Shown: positions 8,610-17,065 of the stretch, piece after piece
How the letters are laid out: each line of letters starts with the position of its first letter
Numbering within the stretch: the first letter of the stretch is position 1
Sequence record: MN850645.1
Source of the DNA: Escherichia phage outra
DNA length: 64,000 nucleotides
Direction: 5' to 3' (one strand)
Notes under the pieces: generated by a model
The model's input: the letters and a program-made list of their open reading frames with translations, nothing else
What the model was told of the DNA's origin: nothing
Database searches by the model: none
Position numbers and translations under genes: made by a program

Positions 8610-9332
8610 TTAAGCAATGATTGCTGCGATATTAGGTTTAACAAAGGTAGATGGTTTCATAATTTTACCTTTGTCATCAAAGAATACGTACACCTTTTGA
8701 ACTTCGTTATATACAGCATGTACCCCAGTATAAGAACCTTCTGCACGATCTTTGCTTCGCATCTCGATAGCATCGCACTCTTTTTCAAGAGCTTCAATAA
8801 TATCCTTAGTTTCCCAAATAGCCAGGAGTTGCTTCTTGGTAGGATACTTGGACTCATTGCTATTCAACACTTCACGCATAACTTTCTTCTCGTTATAAAC
8901 AGAACGCACCAAAGTATCTCGTGCCATACGGGTAAGTGTAAGAGACATTAAGGCAAATTGCAAGTCATTTTCTACCATTTTATCAAATTCAATGATAACA
9001 TCGTAAATGTTTTCTGCCAGAACATCCCCTGTCGGCATTTCCAGAGCTTTATCAACACCTTCTTTACCAAAGAACATAAATGCCAGGTAGGATGCTACCA
9101 CAAAAATATCTGCTGCTGCATCAAGTAATTCAACGTGATCATTTTCCTGTGCTGCTGCTTGGAACTCTTTAAGTTCTTCTCGTACAAAAGAAAGTTGAGC
9201 TTCAAACATCTCTTGAGTAAATTCTGGAGTTACTCCACCACGTGCCTTAGCATTCCAAGCAACAATTTGATCGGCAGCTTTGATAAAGAAGCTATTGTCC
9301 ACTTTTACTTGTTTGAAAAAATTCTCGATCAT
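8610..9332 (-). CDS. MazG-like nucleoside triphosphate pyrophosphohydrolase domain protein (putative)
   Basis: N-terminal EELKEFQAAAQENDHVELLDAAADIFVV resembles the MazG/HisE EExxE...D metal-binding helix pair; C-terminal half unknown. Confidence 0.4.
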   Translation of the reverse strand: MIENFFKQVKVDNSFFIKAADQIVAWNAKARGGVTPEFTQEMFEAQLSFVREELKEFQAAAQENDHVELLDAAADIFVVASYLAFMFFGKEGVDKALEMPTGDVLAENIYDVIIEFDKMVENDLQFALMSLTLTRMARDTLVRSVYNEKKVMREVLNSNESKYPTKKQLLAIWETKDIIEALEKECDAIEMRSKDRAEGSYTGVHAVYNEVQKVYVFFDDKGKIMKPSTFVKPNIAAIIA

Positions 9333-10645: not shown

Positions 10646-10835
10646 CTCTAACCTCCAGTTGCGAAAGAACCCATTTAGCCATTTCAATTTCACCGTGTAG
10701 TCTGCCTAGTTCATAGGCATCATCAATATTACCACCAGTGTAATCATCCACCATAAAGTAAGGATCTTCACTACTGTTAGGCGCGTTTGCAATTCTCGTT
10801 AGTTCTTCAATAAATGTCATAGTTAACCTTACCAA
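10632..10835 (-). CDS. hypothetical protein (67 aa)
   Basis: ORF track only. Confidence 0.35.
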   Translation of the reverse strand: MVRLTMTFIEELTRIANAPNSSEDPYFMVDDYTGGNIDDAYELGRLHGEIEMAKWVLSQLEVRDETN

Positions 10836-11053
10836 TTATACACAAGAGTTTGAATTTCTTCCATCAAGTCTTCAAGATCTGTATCAACATATTCAGAAGA
10901 TGTTGCCATAAAGTATGTAATCATTGTAAACCCTTCCGAAGAAAGGGCATCAAGGATATCATTAAACATATCTTCCATTTCAGTATTCTCACCAAATGAG
11001 AATAACATTTGTTGATCTTCGCTTACACCTTTAACATAGATAGCTGTACTCAT
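10829..11053 (-). CDS. hypothetical acidic protein (74 aa)
   Basis: ORF track only. Confidence 0.35.
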   Translation of the reverse strand: MSTAIYVKGVSEDQQMLFSFGENTEMEDMFNDILDALSSEGFTMITYFMATSSEYVDTDLEDLMEEIQTLVYNW

Positions 11054-11056
11054 ATA

Positions 11057-11377
11057 TTAATCCTTAAGACGTTCATTTAAATCTGCAATAACATCACCTA
11101 AATCTTCACATTCCAGTGTTAATTCGGAAACTTGTCCACTCAAATAACAAACTTCTTCATTTAGATCTGAAATAATGTTTTCTAATGAATCTACTTGGTC
11201 ATCATATGAACGTTTTGTTTCTTCAAGTTCTTCCGTAAGATCATTAATCAAACGGAGCAAAGATAAGATATAACCGTCTCCTGTTTCGTTCCTCCACTCA
11301 CTTCCGTAGCGATAAATAATAATTTCACCATTATCGACTACTGTAAAATACTTACCTTCACCAGAATAAATTTCCAT
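11057..11377 (-). CDS. hypothetical coiled-coil protein (106 aa)
   Basis: ORF track; heptad-like LxxLxxE pattern. Confidence 0.35.
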   Translation of the reverse strand: MEIYSGEGKYFTVVDNGEIIIYRYGSEWRNETGDGYILSLLRLINDLTEELEETKRSYDDQVDSLENIISDLNEEVCYLSGQVSELTLECEDLGDVIADLNERLKD

Positions 11378-11386
11378 ACACTCTCC

Positions 11387-11791
11387 TTATTGTAGCTTAA
11401 GTGAACTGCGAAGACGTTTCTCTTGCTGATCACGAATATGTTGTGGAACCTCGTGAATTGAGTCGTTACCGTGCCTATTTTCAACAACTAAAGAGATAAC
11501 TTGATAACCAAACTCTTCGGCAAGAGTTAAATAAGGTTTAAGTTCTTTCTCTGTGGTTGAAGTGTTAGAGACAATAATCTTTTCAACACCATACTGCATA
11601 TATTTTTGTACTTTGACACGACACCATTGGTGTGCTTTATGGATATTCTCTTCCTTCCACTCATACACACCATCTTCAGTGTAGTGGTATTGATCTGCCT
11701 CACAAATAGGCCAATGATTTTCAGAAATAATTTCTGCTACTGTAGATTTACCTGCGCCTGAAACACCACGTAAAATGATAAGTTGTTTCAT
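11387..11791 (-). CDS. P-loop kinase (polynucleotide/nucleotide kinase-like)
   Basis: Walker A LRGVSGAGKSTVAE at N-terminus; 134 aa; immediately downstream of RNA-ligase-like gene. Confidence 0.5.
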   Translation of the reverse strand: MKQLIILRGVSGAGKSTVAEIISENHWPICEADQYHYTEDGVYEWKEENIHKAHQWCRVKVQKYMQYGVEKIIVSNTSTTEKELKPYLTLAEEFGYQVISLVVENRHGNDSIHEVPQHIRDQQEKRLRSSLKLQ

Positions 11792-12724
11792 TTAGCCTCC
11801 AAAGAAGTTTTCTATTTCTTTACGTCGCTCTTGTGGATCTAGAGCAGCCCATTGAACCTTCGTAAAATTATTTCGAAGCCATTCTAGCAAAGTATAATAT
11901 TCTTCGTCAACAATTTGTTTAGCATTTTTTGGGTTGTCCCAAATCATATCCCACTTCTTATTGCCACCACGCATAAGGAATTTCTTAGCAAGATAGTATG
12001 GTGACTTAATCTTTAAGAGTAAGTTAAACGGATAGTTTGTTTCACGAACAACAAAGCCTTCGTGTCTACAATGTTTAGACATTTCAACAACATCTGAAAA
12101 TTTAATCATCGGATAAACTTCAGGACGTTTAAACTTTGTAACAGATGCAATCCCATCAAGAACACCTTCAGGTAACATGAAACTTGTCCCATCAAGATTT
12201 TGAATTCTTGCTCCAATTAAGTATGCGCCTGGTTCTTCTTCGACAATATGTGGATCAGAAGGATCACAGATTTCAAAAAGGAAAGTTGCTTTTGCACTTT
12301 CTGTCCACTTAATGAAATACTCTATGTCGTCACACTCGGAAACAATACGGTTCTTTGCCATAATTGCAAAATCTGATTCTAGGCTCCCTGTTGTTGATAC
12401 AACAAGTTTCCCTTTGTACACACCTACAGATGCCATAAAACCGTTTACTTTACGGACAACATCTACAATTTCGTCTGCTGGAAGATCTGTACCATTTTCA
12501 AAACGATTAAAGATTTTAGTAAAAGGCCAAATAACAACATTGTCTTCTGAGTCAACAACCAACCCACGACAATCTAGAAGTCGTTTGTCAACGTTCCACA
12601 AATTATCCCAGAATACATTGTTTTTGTATTTAAGCACAGCAAGACCAGCATACTCTCCAGATTTAACTTCTTTTTTATGCACTAAACCTTTTGCAATCAG
12701 GTCATCACAATTGAACTTAGCCAT
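11792..12724 (-). CDS. RNA ligase-like nucleotidyltransferase (Rnl2-like, putative)
   Basis: Covalent nucleotidyltransferase motif I KVNGF (KxNG); 310 aa; flanked by phosphoesterase and kinase. Confidence 0.45.
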   Translation of the reverse strand: MAKFNCDDLIAKGLVHKKEVKSGEYAGLAVLKYKNNVFWDNLWNVDKRLLDCRGLVVDSEDNVVIWPFTKIFNRFENGTDLPADEIVDVVRKVNGFMASVGVYKGKLVVSTTGSLESDFAIMAKNRIVSECDDIEYFIKWTESAKATFLFEICDPSDPHIVEEEPGAYLIGARIQNLDGTSFMLPEGVLDGIASVTKFKRPEVYPMIKFSDVVEMSKHCRHEGFVVRETNYPFNLLLKIKSPYYLAKKFLMRGGNKKWDMIWDNPKNAKQIVDEEYYTLLEWLRNNFTKVQWAALDPQERRKEIENFFGG

Positions 12725-12725
12725 C

Positions 12726-13277
12726 TTAATCTCCTTTGATTATCTTATGATGGTCTACAACAACAATATCACGCTTATCCATAATAGAGATGATTTCGTC
12801 AAAATGCAAGATTTTACCGTGTGCATCCCAACCAACATCCAACATCTTCCCATACAAATGATCAGGGAATGATCCGTGAGAGTGTCCGTGTAGCATGATT
12901 GATCCATGCCCTTGTTTATTCCAGGCAGCCATAGGGTAATGGCTTAAGACGAAAAACAGCTTCTGATATTTCACTTCGTCATAATAAACCACTTCTCCAT
13001 ACTCTGCAAGCACTTTTCTGTGTTTACTGTAATCATGGTTCCCAACACAGTAAGTAATATCCCCTTGGAGACGGGAAGCAATCTTACGGGTATCTTCTTC
13101 AGTCCCGAAACAGAAGTCCCCAAGATGGTACATCTTTACTCCTGGTGTTGTGGCACATTTATTCCATGCTTCGATCAGTGCTTCTGTCATATGCTCCATA
13201 TCTTCCCACGGGCGATATTCAGGAGCAAACTCTCGGATACGTTTGTGCATAAAATGCAAATCACTTGTAATAAACAT
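12726..13277 (-). CDS. calcineurin-like metallophosphoesterase
   Basis: SDLHF...GDFCFG...GNHDY...GHSHG metal-binding motif series. Confidence 0.7.
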   Translation of the reverse strand: MFITSDLHFMHKRIREFAPEYRPWEDMEHMTEALIEAWNKCATTPGVKMYHLGDFCFGTEEDTRKIASRLQGDITYCVGNHDYSKHRKVLAEYGEVVYYDEVKYQKLFFVLSHYPMAAWNKQGHGSIMLHGHSHGSFPDHLYGKMLDVGWDAHGKILHFDEIISIMDKRDIVVVDHHKIIKGD

Positions 13278-13639
13278 TAGTATAATCCCTCGCTGAATAG
13301 TTCACTGTTGTGACCATTTCTTTCGTAGTTAATTTGTTTGGCGTTATCTGCAATGATATAAGCATCTTTTCGACTCCACCAATTGTAATACTGATCAATA
13401 AACCCTTGATTATCAGGTAAGCAAAACAGTTTATCGATCAATCCTGCATCTTTTAAAACATTAAGTTGTGCAGATAGTATAGGATTTGCATGCCTAACAC
13501 AAGGAATAATTAACTCTTCACCATTGTTGAGAATATACTTATTCGCAGCGCAGACTATAACACGTTGAGCATAGTGATCCTCACCAATCCAGGTAAGAGG
13601 TTGGTAACAAATATCATGTTGATTAGTAGCGCACATCAA
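13277..13639 (-). CDS. hypothetical protein (120 aa)
   Basis: ORF track only. Confidence 0.4.
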   Translation of the reverse strand: MMCATNQHDICYQPLTWIGEDHYAQRVIVCAANKYILNNGEELIIPCVRHANPILSAQLNVLKDAGLIDKLFCLPDNQGFIDQYYNWWSRKDAYIIADNAKQINYERNGHNSELFSEGLY

Positions 13640-13794
13640 TTTTCTCCATACTCTTTTAGTCTATCAGCGAAAAAACTGTAATCAGGAAGTAAAAGATCAT
13701 TACTCGTATCGCTCCAGTTCTCTTCCTCTCTATAGATAAAATGCCCTTCATCCTCTTCTTGCTCTGACCAAACTGAATAATGCATAATACCTAC

Positions 13795-14169
13795 TTAATA
13801 GTTAACACGTTTAATTTCAACACCATAGGATGAAATAAAATTTTCCTTAGCTAACATATATTTACCAGCAGCAGAAGGATTTGATGTATGAACATAGATA
13901 GTTTTAAGAGCATCCCATTCACCCGCGTACAACATACATTCTACATCCAAGAACGCATGATATCCTTCTTGATCTTCTCCAAGATCATTATCGAAGTGTA
14001 TCTCTGAGATAGTATTGAAATTATCTTCATCTGAAACAAAAGATGACCAATCCTCAAAAGATTTTAACCAAATGGCATCCTCATAACCATAATCTTTAGG
14101 ATCTCTTAAATCGTCTAACCAAAGAATTTTAGCCACTATCAACCTCCTTCCTGTTTCTCTTCTTTCCAA
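13795..14169 (-). CDS. hypothetical protein (124 aa)
   Basis: ORF track; ILWLDDLRDP / IHFDNDLGE segments of unknown significance. Confidence 0.4.
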   Translation of the reverse strand: MERRETGRRLIVAKILWLDDLRDPKDYGYEDAIWLKSFEDWSSFVSDEDNFNTISEIHFDNDLGEDQEGYHAFLDVECMLYAGEWDALKTIYVHTSNPSAAGKYMLAKENFISSYGVEIKRVNY

Positions 14170-14330
14170 GTTTTACCTTTATCTACCAATTTCTTAGAAA
14201 CAGCAAATCTTTCCCCATTGATATAAAACAAATAAAGAATAAAGGATTTTCCTATAGTTACAGTATCTACTACTTCTACACGCTTCACACCTTGCATGTA
14301 TTTGGCTTTACCTGAATAAATAAGAAACAT
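14139..14330 (-). CDS. hypothetical small protein (63 aa)
   Basis: ORF track only. Confidence 0.3.
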   Translation of the reverse strand: MFLIYSGKAKYMQGVKRVEVVDTVTIGKSFILYLFYINGERFAVSKKLVDKGKTWKEEKQEGG

Positions 14331-14608
14331 TACTTATTCCTTTTGTTGTTGATCACATCTAAAGCTGTGTAAGGCTTGTTTGTACCGCTGTATTCAAGAA
14401 TAATTGGTACATATTCATAGACCAACTCAAAAGTGCCATACACAGAATCTGCAACTGAAATAAGCATTTCAGTGCCTTCGTCGTTCTTAATTAATGAAAA
14501 TCTTGCCCCTGGTTTATTGAGCACTTCATATTTCTTACCTGCTGTCAGCAAACCTGAATACCATTCATTTTGCACAACAGACAAACACTTCAGATATGTT
14601 TTTCTCAT
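14330..14608 (-). CDS. hypothetical protein (92 aa)
   Basis: ORF track only. Confidence 0.35.
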   Translation of the reverse strand: MRKTYLKCLSVVQNEWYSGLLTAGKKYEVLNKPGARFSLIKNDEGTEMLISVADSVYGTFELVYEYVPIILEYSGTNKPYTALDVINNKRNK

Positions 14609-14946
14609 TTCTTTTTGCTCCTTCTTTTAGGCTTCTCGTATAAACCTAACACAGCCGATTCTTTTGCACAAATAGGAACTGACTTCATTCCTCGTTTTTT
14701 AGCTTCTGGTAGATTCAAAACCCACCAGCCAAACCAGTACAATTCATCCTCTGTAAAAGGATTTGCCATAGGATCTGCATCACGTTCTTCAAATTTAGCA
14801 AGAGCTTCTTCTATCTTTTCTATTGGAGTATCAAAGACAAAAGCCTCTGTGTCAAATTTTTGTTTCTTAGGAGCGGCTTTTGCCGCCCCATCTTTAGATG
14901 CGTGCTTTGTTACGGATCGCTTCTTCGGTGTTTTCGCCATCAACAA
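14605..14946 (-). CDS. hypothetical basic protein (113 aa)
   Basis: Lys/Arg-rich N- and C-termini; possibly nucleic-acid binding. Confidence 0.4.
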   Translation of the reverse strand: MLMAKTPKKRSVTKHASKDGAAKAAPKKQKFDTEAFVFDTPIEKIEEALAKFEERDADPMANPFTEDELYWFGWWVLNLPEAKKRGMKSVPICAKESAVLGLYEKPKRRSKKK

Positions 14947-15133
14947 CCTCCATGCGGTGTAAGAAATCTTGCTGGAATCGCCAATACTGTTGACCAGTCC
15001 TTACATCTTCGTAGATCACAACAGGATCAAATACTTTAGATACACCTGCTGGTTTAGGGAAGCCAACTACACGATATAAACCACCTTTGCTAATACAAGA
15101 ATATGTTACATCAGTTAAAATTTCTTTTTTCAT
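14894..15133 (-). CDS. hypothetical protein (79 aa)
   Basis: ORF track only. Confidence 0.3.
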   Translation of the reverse strand: MKKEILTDVTYSCISKGGLYRVVGFPKPAGVSKVFDPVVIYEDVRTGQQYWRFQQDFLHRMEVVDGENTEEAIRNKARI

Positions 15134-15327
15134 TTCTTAATAAACTCCAATACAGGTACGTGATCAGCAGTTAAAGTTACACAATTGTAACTCACCTTTT
15201 CAACTTCAGAGAATGCTTCAACCCATAGCAAGAAATTCTCTTTAGCTTCTTCATAATTCAATGTTGACTTAACAACATGGAACTCACCAAGGATTACTCT
15301 ATAGATTGTTTGCATAGTTTGATTCAT
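15130..15327 (-). CDS. hypothetical protein (65 aa)
   Basis: ORF track only. Confidence 0.35.
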   Translation of the reverse strand: MNQTMQTIYRVILGEFHVVKSTLNYEEAKENFLLWVEAFSEVEKVSYNCVTLTADHVPVLEFIKK

Positions 15328-15393
15328 TTATTTTTCCTTTGTTTAAAATGTGTTAAACAATCGCAAATGCTTGTGACGCACTTTGTGATTCCA

Positions 15394-15762
15394 CTAATTA
15401 ATGTCAGCACTATGATTGTTGAGAGTATAGGATACTCCATCGCCCAAGTCAACATGAATCTCAACTCCTAACTGTCTTTCTAATGGTAAACGTTTTGAGA
15501 ATTGATAATTACAAAGTTTACAGTCTAAGTCAAGCAACTCATGTTTGCTTAAACCTGCAACGATAACTTTGCTCCCCACTGTCCACTCAATACCTTCAAA
15601 ATTATCTCTTCTTTTCAAAATGTCAAGTAAGAAGATGATTTGTTGCCATTCCGTAGACAAGTCTTCTTCATAGAATGCAGAACAAAAAGTTTTATCATCG
15701 TAGAAAGCATACATTATGCCTCCATCTATTGTTTCACTTCTAACGTAACGTGTGACCCTCAT
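15394..15762 (-). CDS. hypothetical protein (122 aa); first gene of the minus-strand early block
   Basis: ORF track; RBS GGAGGAAATAATG at start. Confidence 0.4.
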   Translation of the reverse strand: MRVTRYVRSETIDGGIMYAFYDDKTFCSAFYEEDLSTEWQQIIFLLDILKRRDNFEGIEWTVGSKVIVAGLSKHELLDLDCKLCNYQFSKRLPLERQLGVEIHVDLGDGVSYTLNNHSADIN

Positions 15763-15893
15763 TATTTCCTCCTGTATGGCTCTGTAACGAGCTAATCGCC
15801 TTTAAGATATGCAATCACCTTACCTCACAGTAAAACTCGTTACAATCGTTTTTAGGAGGTTTAGGTTGTACTTAAAAATAATCTAAAAAGGTG

Positions 15894-15922
15894 TTGACAA
15901 ACGCAAAAAAGTATGCTACCCT
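15894..15922 (+). promoter_or_regulatory. sigma70-like promoter candidate (TTGACA-N17-TACCCT)
   Basis: Consensus -35 hexamer, weak -10; followed by GC hairpin ACCCCC...GGGGGT. Confidence 0.3.
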
Positions 15923-16103
15923 AACCCCCGAAAAACGCCGAGCGCAGCGAGGGGGTGTTATCTAATCTTGTGATACATGATCTAACAGACAACTGAGTAG
16001 TCTACATATAGCATTATGTTATGTCTCTAATACTAACATACATACTCTATACTAACAATAGATTCTTTATTAATTTTATTATTAATTAAATAATAAATAT
16101 CTA

Positions 16104-16132
16104 TTGACTTTAGATCTATCTGTATGTAGAGT
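16104..16132 (+). promoter_or_regulatory. sigma70-like promoter (TTGACT-N17-TAGAGT) with A/T-rich UP-like region
   Basis: Hexamers at correct spacing ~40 nt upstream of the Prs-like gene; preceded by ~60 nt A/T tract. Confidence 0.5.
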
Positions 16133-16171
16133 AGAGAACATAAAGTCCTAACTCAACTAAGGAGATAAACA

Positions 16172-17065
16172 ATGAAAGTTAGTATTCTACATGGTGTTGG
16201 CTGTTATGTTACTGATGTAGACGTTAAAGTCTTTACATTCTCTGGTGGAGAACAACATGTTCAACTAGACACGAATCTATCAGGTTTCAATCATGCTACA
16301 GACAGAATCTTACTCTCTTTAGAAGTAAGATCTGCTAAAGACTTGATGACTTTGGTTATGACTAAGAATGCATTGGACAATATGCTATATCATAAACCAT
16401 ATTGTGTTGATTTGCTCATGTTGTATGTGCCATATGCACGACAAGACAGAGTGTGTGAACCTGGGGAAGCATTCGGAGTTAAAGCATTTGCTTCTATAAT
16501 TAATTCATTAAATTTCTCACGTGTTATCGTTGCTGATCCACATAGTGATGTTACTCCAGCAGTGTTTGACAGACTCTGTGTAATATCTCAAGAAGAGATT
16601 GCTTACGAAACTTTAAAGTGGAAGTTACGTATGGAGAATTTTGCTCTTGTTAGCCCTGATGGTGGTGCTCTTAAGAAAATATTTAAATTATCTAAGAAAA
16701 TGTCTTTAGATGTGTTCTGTGCAGAGAAGGTTAGAGATACTGCAACAGGTGCTATTGTTCGTACAGACATTTCTGTACAGGATTTCAATAAACGTAACCT
16801 GATGATCGTAGATGATATCTGTGACGGCGGTAGAACTTTTATTGAATTGGCTAAAGTGCTACGTGCTCGTAACGCAGGTAAGATTGAGTTATATGTTACA
16901 CACGGTATCTTTTCTAAAGGTCTTAAAGAGTTAAGTGAGCACTTTGACTGCATTCATTCTCTTAATGTGTGGGAAGATAACATCCAAGAAGATTCCGGTG
17001 TTCTTGTTAAGAATCAGTCAGATTTGCAACAACAAATTGTATCTCCATACGTGTGGAATTTTTAA
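16172..17065 (+). CDS. ribose-phosphate pyrophosphokinase (Prs) homologue; candidate ADP-ribose pyrophosphokinase
   Basis: YVPYARQDRV (Prs Y.GYARQDR motif) and LMIVDDICDGGRTF (PRPP-binding loop); RBS AAGGAG. Confidence 0.8.
   Translation: MKVSILHGVGCYVTDVDVKVFTFSGGEQHVQLDTNLSGFNHATDRILLSLEVRSAKDLMTLVMTKNALDNMLYHKPYCVDLLMLYVPYARQDRVCEPGEAFGVKAFASIINSLNFSRVIVADPHSDVTPAVFDRLCVISQEEIAYETLKWKLRMENFALVSPDGGALKKIFKLSKKMSLDVFCAEKVRDTATGAIVRTDISVQDFNKRNLMIVDDICDGGRTFIELAKVLRARNAGKIELYVTHGIFSKGLKELSEHFDCIHSLNVWEDNIQEDSGVLVKNQSDLQQQIVSPYVWNF

What the first reader, a model, noticed from the sequence alone, without database searches (positions are those of the whole stretch)
13277..15762. Block of about nine small uncharacterised early ORFs next to the divergent promoter
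Tightly packed minus-strand ORFs of 60-125 aa with no recognisable motifs lie between the RNA-repair-like cassette and the control region, close to the NAD+ module. In virulent phages such promoter-proximal small-gene blocks often hold host-takeover and anti-defence proteins, so these are prime candidates for undescribed inhibitors.
Basis: inference. Interest (0 to 1): 0.5.

Follow-up and report, generated by a model that had tools for sequence, protein, structure and literature searches.

The report
Small accessory genes of phi92-like phage
This is a real, tightly packed run of nine (probably ten) small genes at the head of a leftward operon in a phi92-like E. coli phage; two belong to recognisable families (a cREC RNA-end-repair domain and the T4 Arn.3 family), and the rest are lineage-specific proteins of unknown function, so it is an already catalogued accessory block and not a new system.

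Summary
The window is a Justusliebigvirus (phi92-like) genome, 98-99% identical to published phages. Region 13277-15762 (-) is phi92 gp098-gp106A. All nine ORFs are real genes. They are packed with gaps of -47 to +9 nt, most have Shine-Dalgarno motifs, and pN is well below pS against Phapecoctavirus orthologues.

"No recognisable motifs" is wrong for two of them. gp100 (13795-14136) is a cREC domain (PF20274, above Pfam's cutoff, with Rec-type D-D/D/T/K residues intact). It belongs with the adjacent kinase, Rnl1 and phosphoesterase RNA-repair genes, so the cassette reaches into the block. gp098 belongs to the very large T4 Arn.3 family, which explains its "anti-restriction nuclease" mislabel. 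Its confident AF2 model matches no solved fold.

gp103 ("transposase-like") has a conserved core with lysine-rich tails and no support for that label. gp099, gp101, gp102, gp104, gp105 and gp106 are confined to Stephanstirmvirinae. A tenth gene, a 43-aa membrane-type ORF at 15324-15455, is likely.

The context is counter-defence-rich: RNA repair, NAD+ salvage and a MazG/Atd1-like gene. Nothing shows that any of these proteins is an inhibitor, and early timing is inferred. Verdict: ordinary and already annotated, interest low to moderate.

The parts
15394..15762 (-). gp106A orthologue, 122 aa, acidic (pI 4.8). It is the first gene after the divergent intergenic region and its function is unknown.
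   Evidence: ORF with AGGAGG SD. The long form (A) is the conserved one: the ESCO5 orthologue aligns from residue 5 at 42% identity, pN 0.40 / pS 0.73. No Pfam, NCBIfam, PADLOC or PDB hit. Only one 90% cluster in the 5.8-billion-protein search. tblastn finds 132 phage records, almost all Stephanstirmvirinae.
15324..15455 (-). Probable tenth gene: a 43-aa single-helix membrane-type peptide with a basic tail. It is not annotated in phi92.
   Evidence: ATG with AGGAG 9 nt upstream and an ATGA stop/start overlap with gp105. Maximum Kyte-Doolittle 19-residue window 1.9. ESCO5 annotates a 38-aa hydrophobic ORF at the same position. Sequence evidence is weak: 33% identity, pN 0.39 / pS 0.68.
15130..15327 (-). 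gp105 orthologue, 65 aa, function unknown, lineage-specific.
   Evidence: phrog_15683 (unknown function) only. 50% identity to the ESCO5 orthologue, pN 0.30 / pS 0.84. No other family hit.
14894..15133 (-). gp104 orthologue, 79 aa. DUF1653-like at best; function unknown.
   Evidence: Pfam DUF1653 E 0.077, 13.8 bits against a cutoff of 23.5. The ESCO5 orthologue gives no Pfam hit. dN/dS 0.15. 139 phage records. PDB sequence search finds nothing.
14605..14940 (-). gp103 orthologue, 111 aa, pI 9.6. It has a Lys/Ala/Pro-rich disordered N-tail, a conserved core of about 70 aa (beta-alpha-alpha-beta-alpha) and a basic C-tail. It is a candidate nucleic-acid-binding protein. The 'transposase-like' label is unsupported.
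14330..14608 (-). gp102 orthologue, 92 aa, function unknown, lineage-specific.
   Evidence: phrog_10169 (unknown). tblastn finds exactly 121 records, the same count as the megablast of the whole region and almost all Stephanstirmvirinae. 65% identity to ESCO5, pN 0.23 / pS 0.94. No PDB hit.
14139..14330 (-). gp101 orthologue, 63 aa, basic (pI 9.6), function unknown, lineage-specific.
   Evidence: phrog_15376 (unknown). dN/dS 0.08. No significant family hit.
13795..14136 (-). gp100 orthologue, 113 aa: a cREC (cyclic-phosphate-processing receiver) domain protein. It is functionally part of the RNA-repair cassette.
   Evidence: PF20274 E 8.7e-14, 52.4 bits (cutoff 27). Invariant D8-D9, D49-N-D51, H83-T-S-N-P87 and K92 across four genera. 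The orthologue lies directly between RNA ligase and kinase in Mydovirus, and next to RNA ligase and Sir2 in Vequintavirus. It sits in tRNA clusters or near RtcB in other phages. 357 phage records. This neighbourhood type is described in PMC9503650.
13636..13785 (-). gp099 orthologue, 49 aa, very acidic (net -11, pI 4.1). Its stop overlaps the gp098 start. Function unknown.
   Evidence: 79% identity to ESCO5, dN/dS 0.06. phrog_18323 (unknown). Found only where gp098 is found in the loci compared.
13277..13636 (-). gp098 orthologue, 119 aa: a member of the T4 Arn.3 family (the homologues' precomputed Pfam label is PF26092). Its start and stop overlap those of gp099 and the phosphoesterase gene by one base each. 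Biochemical function unknown.
11387..13277 (-). Adjacent RNA-repair genes that gp100 (and possibly gp098/gp099) work with: P-loop kinase (11387-11791), Rnl1-type RNA ligase (11792-12724) and calcineurin-like phosphoesterase (12726-13277).
   Evidence: Pfam AAA_33 at 4.6e-10 and RNA_lig_T4_1 at 5.4e-15, both above cutoff. Metallophos_2 at 3.3e-4 scores 21.1 bits, below its cutoff of 27. Gaps of 0-1 nt between these genes.
15763..16171 (.). Divergent intergenic region between gp106A and the PRPP-synthetase/NadV genes. It is presumed to hold the promoters.
   Evidence: GC skew changes sign here. One plausible rightward TTGACT-17-TAGAGT at 16104-16132, but the scan as a whole is at chance level. 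Sequence islands conserved with ESCO5 upstream of gp106. No Rfam family.

Best explanation
The region is the promoter-proximal part of the leftward transcription unit of a phi92-like (Justusliebigvirus) myovirus. It is a mosaic of small accessory genes, not one system.

(1) gp100 is a cREC phosphoesterase. It belongs functionally to the neighbouring RNA-repair genes. The inferred pathway: after a host anticodon nuclease cuts a tRNA, cREC and/or the calcineurin-like phosphoesterase open and remove the 2',3'-cyclic phosphate, the P-loop kinase phosphorylates the 5'-OH, and the Rnl1-type ligase reseals the tRNA.

(2) gp098 is a T4 Arn.3-family protein. This family is very widespread among virulent phages, has an enzyme-like or ligand-binding pattern of invariant polar residues, and has no solved structural relative. 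It was acquired by Stephanstirmvirinae together with the tiny acidic gp099, and its reading frame overlaps both neighbours by one base. Its biochemical role is unknown.

(3) gp103 is a conserved small basic-tailed protein shared with Vequintavirinae, most likely nucleic-acid binding.

(4) gp101, gp102, gp104, gp105, gp106A and a 43-aa membrane peptide are Stephanstirmvirinae-specific accessory proteins. They are maintained by purifying selection, and their role (host takeover or counter-defence) is inferred from position only.

Shown here: gene reality, family assignments, distribution and synteny. Inferred: all activities, the timing of expression, and any anti-defence role for group 4.
For: Identity of the phage and one-to-one match to the phi92 annotation.

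Coding reality: packing and SD motifs; pN below pS for all nine.

cREC: Pfam hit above cutoff; catalytic-type residues invariant; conserved linkage to RNA ligase, kinase, phosphoesterase and Sir2 in three other genera and to tRNA clusters or RtcB elsewhere. This matches the neighbourhood published by Iyer et al..

Repair genes.

Arn.3 family; structure without a solved relative.

gp103.

Lineage restriction of the rest. Gene gain and loss in the same interval in ESCO5, including an AP2-domain homing-endonuclease-like insert.

Counter-defence context: MazG-like gene with the Atd1 literature; NAD+ salvage genes.
Against: No activity of cREC has ever been measured (one search states it is experimentally uncharacterised). 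In phi92-like phages the Sir2 partner seen in rV5 and Mydovirus is absent, so the exact substrate (RNA>P or ADPr>P) is open.

The gp098 family shows no consistent neighbour across 31 dereplicated viral loci: RNA ligase in 2, metallophosphoesterase in 1. Its physical coupling to the repair genes here may therefore be incidental.

The nucleic-acid-binding role of gp103 rests on charge and disorder only.

Early expression is not demonstrated.

Confidence: 0.6

Rival explanations
1. Extended repair module. gp100, gp099 and gp098 all work with the phosphoesterase, Rnl1 and kinase as one RNA-repair / NAD-ADPr-processing machine. gp098 (Arn.3 family) would supply an end-processing or ADPr-derivative-processing step that Sir2 supplies in rV5 and Mydovirus. 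gp099 would be its small partner.
For: The stop and start codons of gp099, gp098 and the phosphoesterase gene overlap by 1 nt, and the following ligase and kinase genes are 0-1 nt apart. The trio keeps its order in both Stephanstirmvirinae genera. These phages lack the Sir2 present in the other versions of the cassette. The gp098 family has enzyme-like invariant polar residues. RNA ligase or metallophosphoesterase neighbours occur in a few unrelated loci, and a Macro-like ORF lies about 0.5 kb away in Kuttervirus-type phages.
Against: gp098 and gp099 are absent from the Mydovirus and Vequintavirus cassettes. Across 31 dereplicated viral loci no repair gene is a consistent neighbour. In T4, Arn.3 lies between motA and arn, far from pseT and rnlA by position. 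The Macro call is by eye from a motif and was not tested.
Confidence: 0.25
2. One reading: most of the nine are dedicated inhibitors of host defence systems (anti-RM, anti-CBASS, anti-Thoeris and similar) acting by direct binding.
For: Small size, lineage restriction, fast divergence toward the promoter (gp106 42% and gp105 50% identity between genera against 87-94% for the repair enzymes). A variable gene content hot spot. Acidic gp099 (net -11) and gp106A. Neighbouring counter-defence genes.
Against: No similarity to any characterised protein of any kind. The anti-defence survey read here, in its list of anti-defence genes encoded only in virulent phages, names Justusliebigvirus only for Atd1. 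The one confident assignment in the block is an enzyme. All evidence is positional.
Confidence: 0.15
3. Host-takeover block. The proteins mainly redirect host physiology (nucleoid, transcription, membrane) rather than counter immunity. Examples: gp103 as a DNA- or RNA-coating basic protein, and the 43-aa peptide and others as growth-arresting factors.
For: The lysine-rich tails and conservation of gp103 across two subfamilies. The membrane-type peptide. The T4 region that holds Arn.3 also holds motA, asiA and ndd.
Against: No homology to any known takeover factor. Nothing tested. The surrounding genes are repair or metabolic, not regulatory.
Confidence: 0.2
4. Some of the ORFs are not genes but chance reading frames in an AT-rich spacer.
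For: Several are very short (49-65 aa) and have no homologue outside one subfamily.
Against: pN is well below pS for every one. Conserved order, overlaps and SD motifs. Each has its own PHROG with a full-length match.
Confidence: 0.02

Closest known systems
cREC-containing RNA-repair neighbourhood of rV5 / Mydo-type phages (Iyer, Burroughs, Anantharaman, Aravind 2022, PMC9503650, type 2: Sir2 + T4-like RNA ligase + cREC + nucleotide kinase + MazG, sometimes with a calcineurin-like phosphoesterase)
   Same: Same components: Rnl1-type ligase, P-loop kinase, calcineurin-like phosphoesterase, cREC, with a MazG-like gene further along the operon. Orthology to the Mydovirus and Vequintavirus genes at 36-71% identity.
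   Different: No Sir2 gene in the phi92-like or ESCO5 versions. cREC is separated from the ligase by three genes (phosphoesterase, gp098, gp099) instead of abutting it. The cREC allele is only 47% identical between the two Stephanstirmvirinae genera while its flanks are 80-94% identical.
T4 Arn.3 and the T4 motA-arn early accessory region
   Same: gp098 is a clear homologue of the C-terminal roughly 95 aa of T4 Arn.3 (family HMM E 5.5e-38). In both phages the gene sits in a run of small ORFs of unknown function.
   Different: T4 Arn.3 has a roughly 55-aa N-terminal extension. The neighbours are unrelated. It is not related to Arn itself, the McrBC inhibitor, so the GenBank label 'anti-restriction nuclease' is annotation spill-over.
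T4 Pnkp-Rnl1 tRNA repair that counters the PrrC anticodon nuclease (established knowledge; T4 Pnkp mechanism per the abstract of PMC3592404 listed)
   Same: The same logic of end healing (kinase plus phosphoesterase) followed by sealing with an Rnl1-type ligase.
   Different: Healing is split over separate proteins, and the phosphatase chemistry differs: a calcineurin-like metallophosphoesterase plus a predicted metal-independent cREC instead of the HAD/DxDxT domain of Pnkp. No target nuclease is known for this phage.
Accessory / anti-defence gene clusters near the ends of phage early operons, for example the NTase-adjacent loci that yielded Atd1 (bioRxiv 10.1101/2022.06.09.495361)
   Same: Small, fast-evolving, lineage-restricted genes next to NAD+ biosynthesis and MazG-like genes.
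   Different: None of the nine ORFs has been shown, here or in the papers read, to affect any defence system.

Membership tests
cREC (Pfam PF20274, cyclic-phosphate processing receiver domain): gp100 | Significant match to the family profile above the curated cutoff | tested here: met
   E 8.7e-14, 52.4 bits against a cutoff of 27, covering profile positions 2-81 of 88.
cREC (PF20274): gp100 | Receiver-type acidic active site retained (paired Asp after strand 1, Asp after strand 3, Thr/Ser and Lys equivalents) | tested here: met
   D8-D9, D49-N-D51, T84-S85 and K92 are invariant in four genera. The correspondence to CheY positions rests on established knowledge of Rec domains and was not checked by superposition.
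cREC (PF20274): gp100 | Genomic association with RNA-repair or NAD-ADPr genes, and never with histidine kinases | tested here: met
   Next to RNA ligase, kinase, phosphoesterase or Sir2 in four phage genera. In tRNA clusters or near RtcB in two more.
cREC (PF20274): gp100 | [quoted passage not shown] | not testable with these tools
   The activity is a prediction even for the family as a whole.
T4 Arn.3 family (homologues labelled PF26092): gp098 | Profile-level homology to T4 Arn.3 | tested here: met
   An HMM of 92 family members, with gp098 first, hits T4 Arn.3 at E 5.5e-38 over residues 54-152. tblastn with a family member recovers genes annotated 'arn.3' in T4-like phages.
T4 Arn.3 family (PF26092): gp098 | Family motif R-x-I-V-C-A-A-N ... 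R-H ... Q-G-F-x-D-Q ... R-x-x-A ... L-F-S-E-x-L-Y | tested here: met
   All elements are present in gp098. H49, G78, F79, A92, L113, S115 and E116 are invariant in 92 sequences.
T4 Arn.3 family (PF26092): gp098 | Direct hit of gp098 to the Pfam model PF26092 | tested here: inconclusive
   The model appears to be absent from the local Pfam copy: gp098, T4 Arn.3 and ten other family members give no such hit. The label comes only from precomputed annotation of the 20 homologues. The family's name could not be retrieved.
T4 Arn (inhibitor of McrBC; 'anti-restriction nuclease' as labelled in several GenBank records): gp098 | Sequence similarity to T4 Arn | tested here: not met
   No hit with the family HMM at E<=100 with filters off. 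No blastp hit between gp098 and T4 Arn.
DUF1653 (PF07866): gp104 | Match above the curated cutoff | tested here: not met
   13.8 bits against a cutoff of 23.5, E 0.077. The ESCO5 orthologue gives no hit at E<=0.1. The resemblance remains a lead only.
Transposase ('transposase-like protein' as labelled in GenBank): gp103 | Any transposase, integrase or HTH domain, or fold similarity to one | tested here: not met
Described anti-defence protein families (AntiDefenseFinder / dbAPIS / EVADES sets): all ORFs | Profile or fold match to a characterised anti-defence protein | not testable with these tools
   No anti-defence library is offered. PADLOC (defence systems) gives nothing. The only indirect evidence is that the anti-defence survey read here, in its list of virulent-phage-only anti-defence genes, names this genus only for Atd1.
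Early (pre-replicative) gene class: the whole block | Transcription from host-sigma-70 promoters in the first minutes of infection | tested here: inconclusive
   The consensus scan is at chance level, 14 sites against 11.6 +/- 3.3. No strong leftward promoter was recognised in 15763-16171. No transcriptome was found.

The most novel reading that the evidence does not exclude
gp098 represents a very large, uncharacterised phage protein family: T4 Arn.3 / PF26092, with at least 1133 clusters at 50% identity and 1579 sequenced phages. It has a confidently predicted fold with no solved relative and a constellation of invariant polar residues (R-H, Q-G-F-x-D, R, S-E). It could be a new small enzyme or 'sponge' acting on a nucleotide-derived immune signal or on RNA/ADPr ends, which would make it a broadly distributed counter-defence factor. 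Here it may work with the acidic 49-aa gp099.
Probability: 0.15. Interest if true: 0.65.

Novelty: already known. Interest (0 to 1): 0.25.

Why it matters
Practically, the result corrects annotation that has drifted through more than 100 GenBank records:
- 'anti-restriction nuclease' should read Arn.3-family protein.
- 'RNA ligase 1 and tail attachment protein' and 'nudix hydrolase' should read cREC.
- 'transposase-like' should read unknown basic-tailed protein.

It also redraws the boundary of the phage's RNA-repair module, which reaches 860 bp into the block.

Biologically, phi92-like phages are broad-host-range therapeutic candidates. Their leftward operon concentrates RNA repair, a MazG/Atd1-like gene and, divergently, NAD+ salvage, so the remaining ORFans are sensible targets for anti-defence screens. 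The one lead with reach beyond this phage group is the Arn.3 family. It is abundant, conserved like an enzyme and structurally unmatched, and its best-known member sits in T4, where genetics is easy.

Tried and rejected
- Single-sequence Pfam, NCBIfam, PHROGs and PADLOC scans of all ten ORFs gave only the cREC hit. The PHROGs matched are all 'unknown function'.
- PDB sequence or profile searches for gp098, gp100, gp102, gp103, gp104 and gp106A found nothing.
- I tested whether gp098 is a universal partner of RNA repair. It is absent from the Mydovirus and Vequintavirus cassettes. Neighbourhood analysis of 80 viral loci (31 dereplicated groups, 110 neighbours scanned against Pfam) found no recurrent partner. 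Rejected as a general rule.
- Fusion partners in long family members have no Pfam domain.
- The 118-aa and 116-aa ORFs next to the phosphoesterase in Seu621 and HMD-6 are not divergent Arn.3 homologues.
- Paralogy among the nine ORFs: none.
- Promoter and terminator consensus scans were at chance level. A GC-rich hairpin at 15936-15949 is not more stable than shuffled sequence (z = -0.4). Rfam gave only a sub-threshold GA-cis hit (E 0.3). Motifs conserved upstream of gp106 are not repeated in the window.
- Literature searches for PF26092, phrog_839, gp098 and arn.3 returned nothing usable. The phi92 genome paper is not held.
- A blastp hit of gp104 to T4 Arn (20 bits, two-sequence database) was discarded as meaningless.

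Full report
What the window is. A megablast of 13000-16200 finds 121 phage records. 55 of them cover the stretch at 95-99% identity. The best are Escherichia phage vB_Eco_PATM (99.2%) and phi92 (98.3%), genus Justusliebigvirus, subfamily Stephanstirmvirinae. In phi92 the finding's interval is annotated as gp098, 099, 100, 101, 102, 103, 104, 105 and 106A/B, all 'hypothetical'.

Are the ORFs real? The six-frame listing shows the nine minus-strand ORFs. Using the phi92 start choices they are 119, 49, 113, 63, 92, 111, 79, 65 and 122 aa. Neighbouring genes are separated by -47 to +9 nt, several with ATGA-type overlaps, and most are preceded by GGAG-type ribosome-binding motifs. GC skew is negative through the block and changes sign in the 16001-17000 window, in line with a divergent junction at 15763-16171. 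Against the orthologues in Phapecoctavirus ESCO5, every ORF has far fewer non-synonymous than synonymous differences per site: pN 0.13-0.40 against pS 0.52-0.94, and dN/dS 0.06-0.22 where dS is not saturated. They are protein-coding genes under purifying selection. There is also a probable tenth gene at 15324-15455 (43 aa, one hydrophobic helix and a basic tail). It has AGGAG 9 nt upstream of its ATG and an ATGA overlap with gp105, and ESCO5 annotates a 38-aa hydrophobic ORF at the same place. Its sequence conservation is weak, so I call it probable.

gp100 is a cREC domain and belongs to the repair cassette. Pfam gives PF20274 (cyclic-phosphate processing receiver domain) at E 8.7e-14, 52 bits against a cutoff of 27. 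An alignment with the Mydovirus, Vequintavirus and Phapecoctavirus orthologues keeps D8-D9, D49-N-D51, H83-T-S-N-P87 and K92 invariant. This is the receiver-type acidic pocket that Iyer, Burroughs and Aravind use to predict a metal-independent cyclic-phosphodiesterase. They state that it is experimentally uncharacterised.

The same authors describe this neighbourhood in phage V5 and Mydo: Sir2, T4-like RNA ligase, cREC, nucleotide kinase, MazG and sometimes a calcineurin-like phosphoesterase. I confirmed the linkage. In Seu621 (Mydovirus) the cREC gene lies between the RNA ligase and the kinase. In HMD-6 (Vequintavirus) it lies between the RNA ligase and Sir2. In ESCO5 the order is the same as here. 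In a T5-like Pectobacterium phage it is embedded in the tRNA gene cluster, and in Proteus phage Privateer it lies about 2.5 kb downstream of an RtcB-like ligase, in the same locus as tRNA genes. In the window the adjacent genes are a P-loop kinase (AAA_33), an Rnl1-type ligase (RNA_lig_T4_1) and a calcineurin-like phosphoesterase (Metallophos_2, below Pfam's cutoff). It reaches at least to 14136.

The inferred mechanism, by analogy with T4 Pnkp/Rnl1 against PrrC (established knowledge), has three steps. The cyclic phosphate is opened and removed by cREC and/or the metallophosphoesterase. The 5'-OH is phosphorylated by the kinase. The ligase seals the break. Two peculiarities stand out. The Stephanstirmvirinae versions have no Sir2. 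And the cREC allele is only 47% identical between the two genera, while the phosphoesterase is 94%, the ligase 87% and gp098 80% identical, so this gene has been exchanged.

gp098 is a T4 Arn.3-family protein. Its 20 close homologues carry a precomputed Pfam label, PF26092. That model appears to be missing from the local Pfam copy and its name could not be found. A profile search of 1.84 billion representative proteins finds 1133 clusters at E<=1e-3. Most are stand-alone proteins of 95-130 aa, and some have N-terminal extensions that carry no Pfam domain. The core motif is R-x-IVCAAN ... RH ... QGFxDQ ... R-x-x-A ... LFSExLY, with H49, G78, F79, A92, L113, S115 and E116 invariant in 92 sequences. 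A tblastn with one member hits 1579 phage genomes, including T4-like phages where the gene is annotated arn.3, Kuttervirus (CBA120 orf018), large Pseudomonas phages of 267-283 kb, and ICP1. The family HMM hits T4 Arn.3 at E 5.5e-38.

I tested whether the family is generally tied to RNA repair, and it is not. It is absent from the Mydovirus and Vequintavirus cassettes. In 80 viral loci (31 dereplicated groups) no neighbour recurs: RNA ligase in 2 groups and metallophosphoesterase in 1. Its role here is therefore open. The 1-nt overlaps of its start with the gp099 stop and of its stop with the phosphoesterase start keep the 'extended repair module' rival alive at about 0.25.

The remaining ORFs. 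gp099 (49 aa, net charge -11), gp101, gp102, gp104, gp105 and gp106A match only small PHROGs of unknown function. They have orthologues in Phapecoctavirus but not in the Mydovirus or Vequintavirus loci. tblastn finds gp102 in 121, gp106A in 132 and gp104 in 139 of 50,697 phage records, almost all Stephanstirmvirinae. gp106A has a single 90% cluster in the 5.8-billion-protein collection. The resemblance of gp104 to DUF1653 is below threshold and is not shared by its orthologue. Divergence between the genera rises toward the promoter: gp106 42% and gp105 50% identity. ESCO5 also carries extra genes in the interval, including an AP2-domain, homing-endonuclease-like ORF. This is the signature of a plastic accessory region.

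Interpretation. The surroundings are rich in counter-defence functions. There is RNA repair. There is a MazG-like gene at 8610-9332 of the type shown to be Atd1, a (p)ppGpp pyrophosphatase that blunts TIR effectors and is reported from Justusliebigvirus. And there are the divergent PRPP synthetase and NadV genes. But nothing found here shows that any of these proteins is an inhibitor, and the only firm assignment is an enzyme of the neighbouring pathway. 'Early' is unproven: the sigma-70 scan is at chance, I could not recognise a convincing leftward promoter, and no transcriptome was found.

Verdict. The block is real, but it is ordinary and already annotated. The added value is the corrected boundary of the repair module, corrected labels, a likely extra small gene, and the recognition that gp098 belongs to a very large, structurally unmatched family whose T4 member (Arn.3) is genetically accessible.

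Noticed in passing
window 15324-15455 (-): Probable unannotated 43-aa membrane-type gene (MLTWAMEYPILSTIIVLTLISGITKCVTSICDCLTHFKQRKNK). It has AGGAG 9 nt upstream and an ATGA overlap with gp105, and it overlaps the 3' end of gp106. ESCO5 annotates a 38-aa hydrophobic positional equivalent.
   Followed up: partly
window 13795-14136 (-) vs L005 8995-9339: The cREC gene is only 47% identical between Justusliebigvirus and Phapecoctavirus, while the flanking genes are 80-94% identical. It is slightly closer (52%) to the Mydovirus allele. This looks like allelic replacement inside a conserved cassette.
   Followed up: partly
window 8610-9332 (-): A 240-aa MazG-like (PRA-PH) protein in the same leftward operon. 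It is probably the Atd1-type (p)ppGpp pyrophosphatase reported for Justusliebigvirus and Phapecoctavirus. It was not compared with the published Atd1 sequence.
   Followed up: partly
window 15813-15825, 15909-15923 and 15941-15951 (-): Sequence islands upstream of gp106 (AGGTAAGGTGATT; TAGGGTAGCATACTT; CTCGCTGCGCT) are conserved with ESCO5 although the rest of the spacer is not. They are not repeated elsewhere in the window, there is no Rfam match, and the local hairpin is no more stable than shuffles. Possibly a promoter, operator or leader element.
   Followed up: partly
L003 9986-10762; L004 9348-10109; absent from window, L001 and L005: The Sir2-like gene that accompanies ligase and cREC in Mydovirus and Vequintavirus is missing from the Stephanstirmvirinae cassette. 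In the corresponding stretch these phages have gp098 + gp099 and small acidic coiled-coil ORFs (gp094, gp093).
   Followed up: partly
L005 7289-7894: ESCO5 carries a 201-aa AP2-domain ORF (homing-endonuclease-like; Pfam AP2 E 1.3e-7, just under the cutoff) inserted between the gp103 and gp102 orthologues. It also has two further ORFs (68 and 156 aa) between gp101 and cREC that phi92-like phages lack.
   Followed up: partly
GenBank records under window 13277-14940: Annotation drift. gp098 is labelled 'anti-restriction nuclease', gp100 'RNA ligase 1 and tail attachment protein' or 'nudix hydrolase', and gp103 'transposase-like protein'. None of these labels is supported by the analyses here.
   Followed up: yes
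MG065645.1, MG065689.1, MG065639.1, MG065656.1: Several records named 'Campylobacter phage' with host Campylobacter jejuni are 97.8% identical to this E. coli phage region over 3.2 kb. The host labels look doubtful.
   Followed up: no
L087 4271-4876 (CBA120 orf021, 'Tk.4') and L018 5765-6385: In Kuttervirus-type phages the Arn.3-family gene lies about 0.5 kb upstream of a roughly 200-aa ORF that looks Macro-domain-like by eye (GDLL...AHGANC...MGAGIA). It was not tested with a profile. If confirmed, it is a weak hint of an ADP-ribose connection for the family.
   Followed up: no
window 10829-11377 (-): gp093 and gp094 orthologues, just beyond the kinase, are strongly acidic (net -15 and -19). 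gp094 gives only weak coiled-coil-type Pfam hits. They are as uncharacterised as the nine ORFs of the finding.
   Followed up: no
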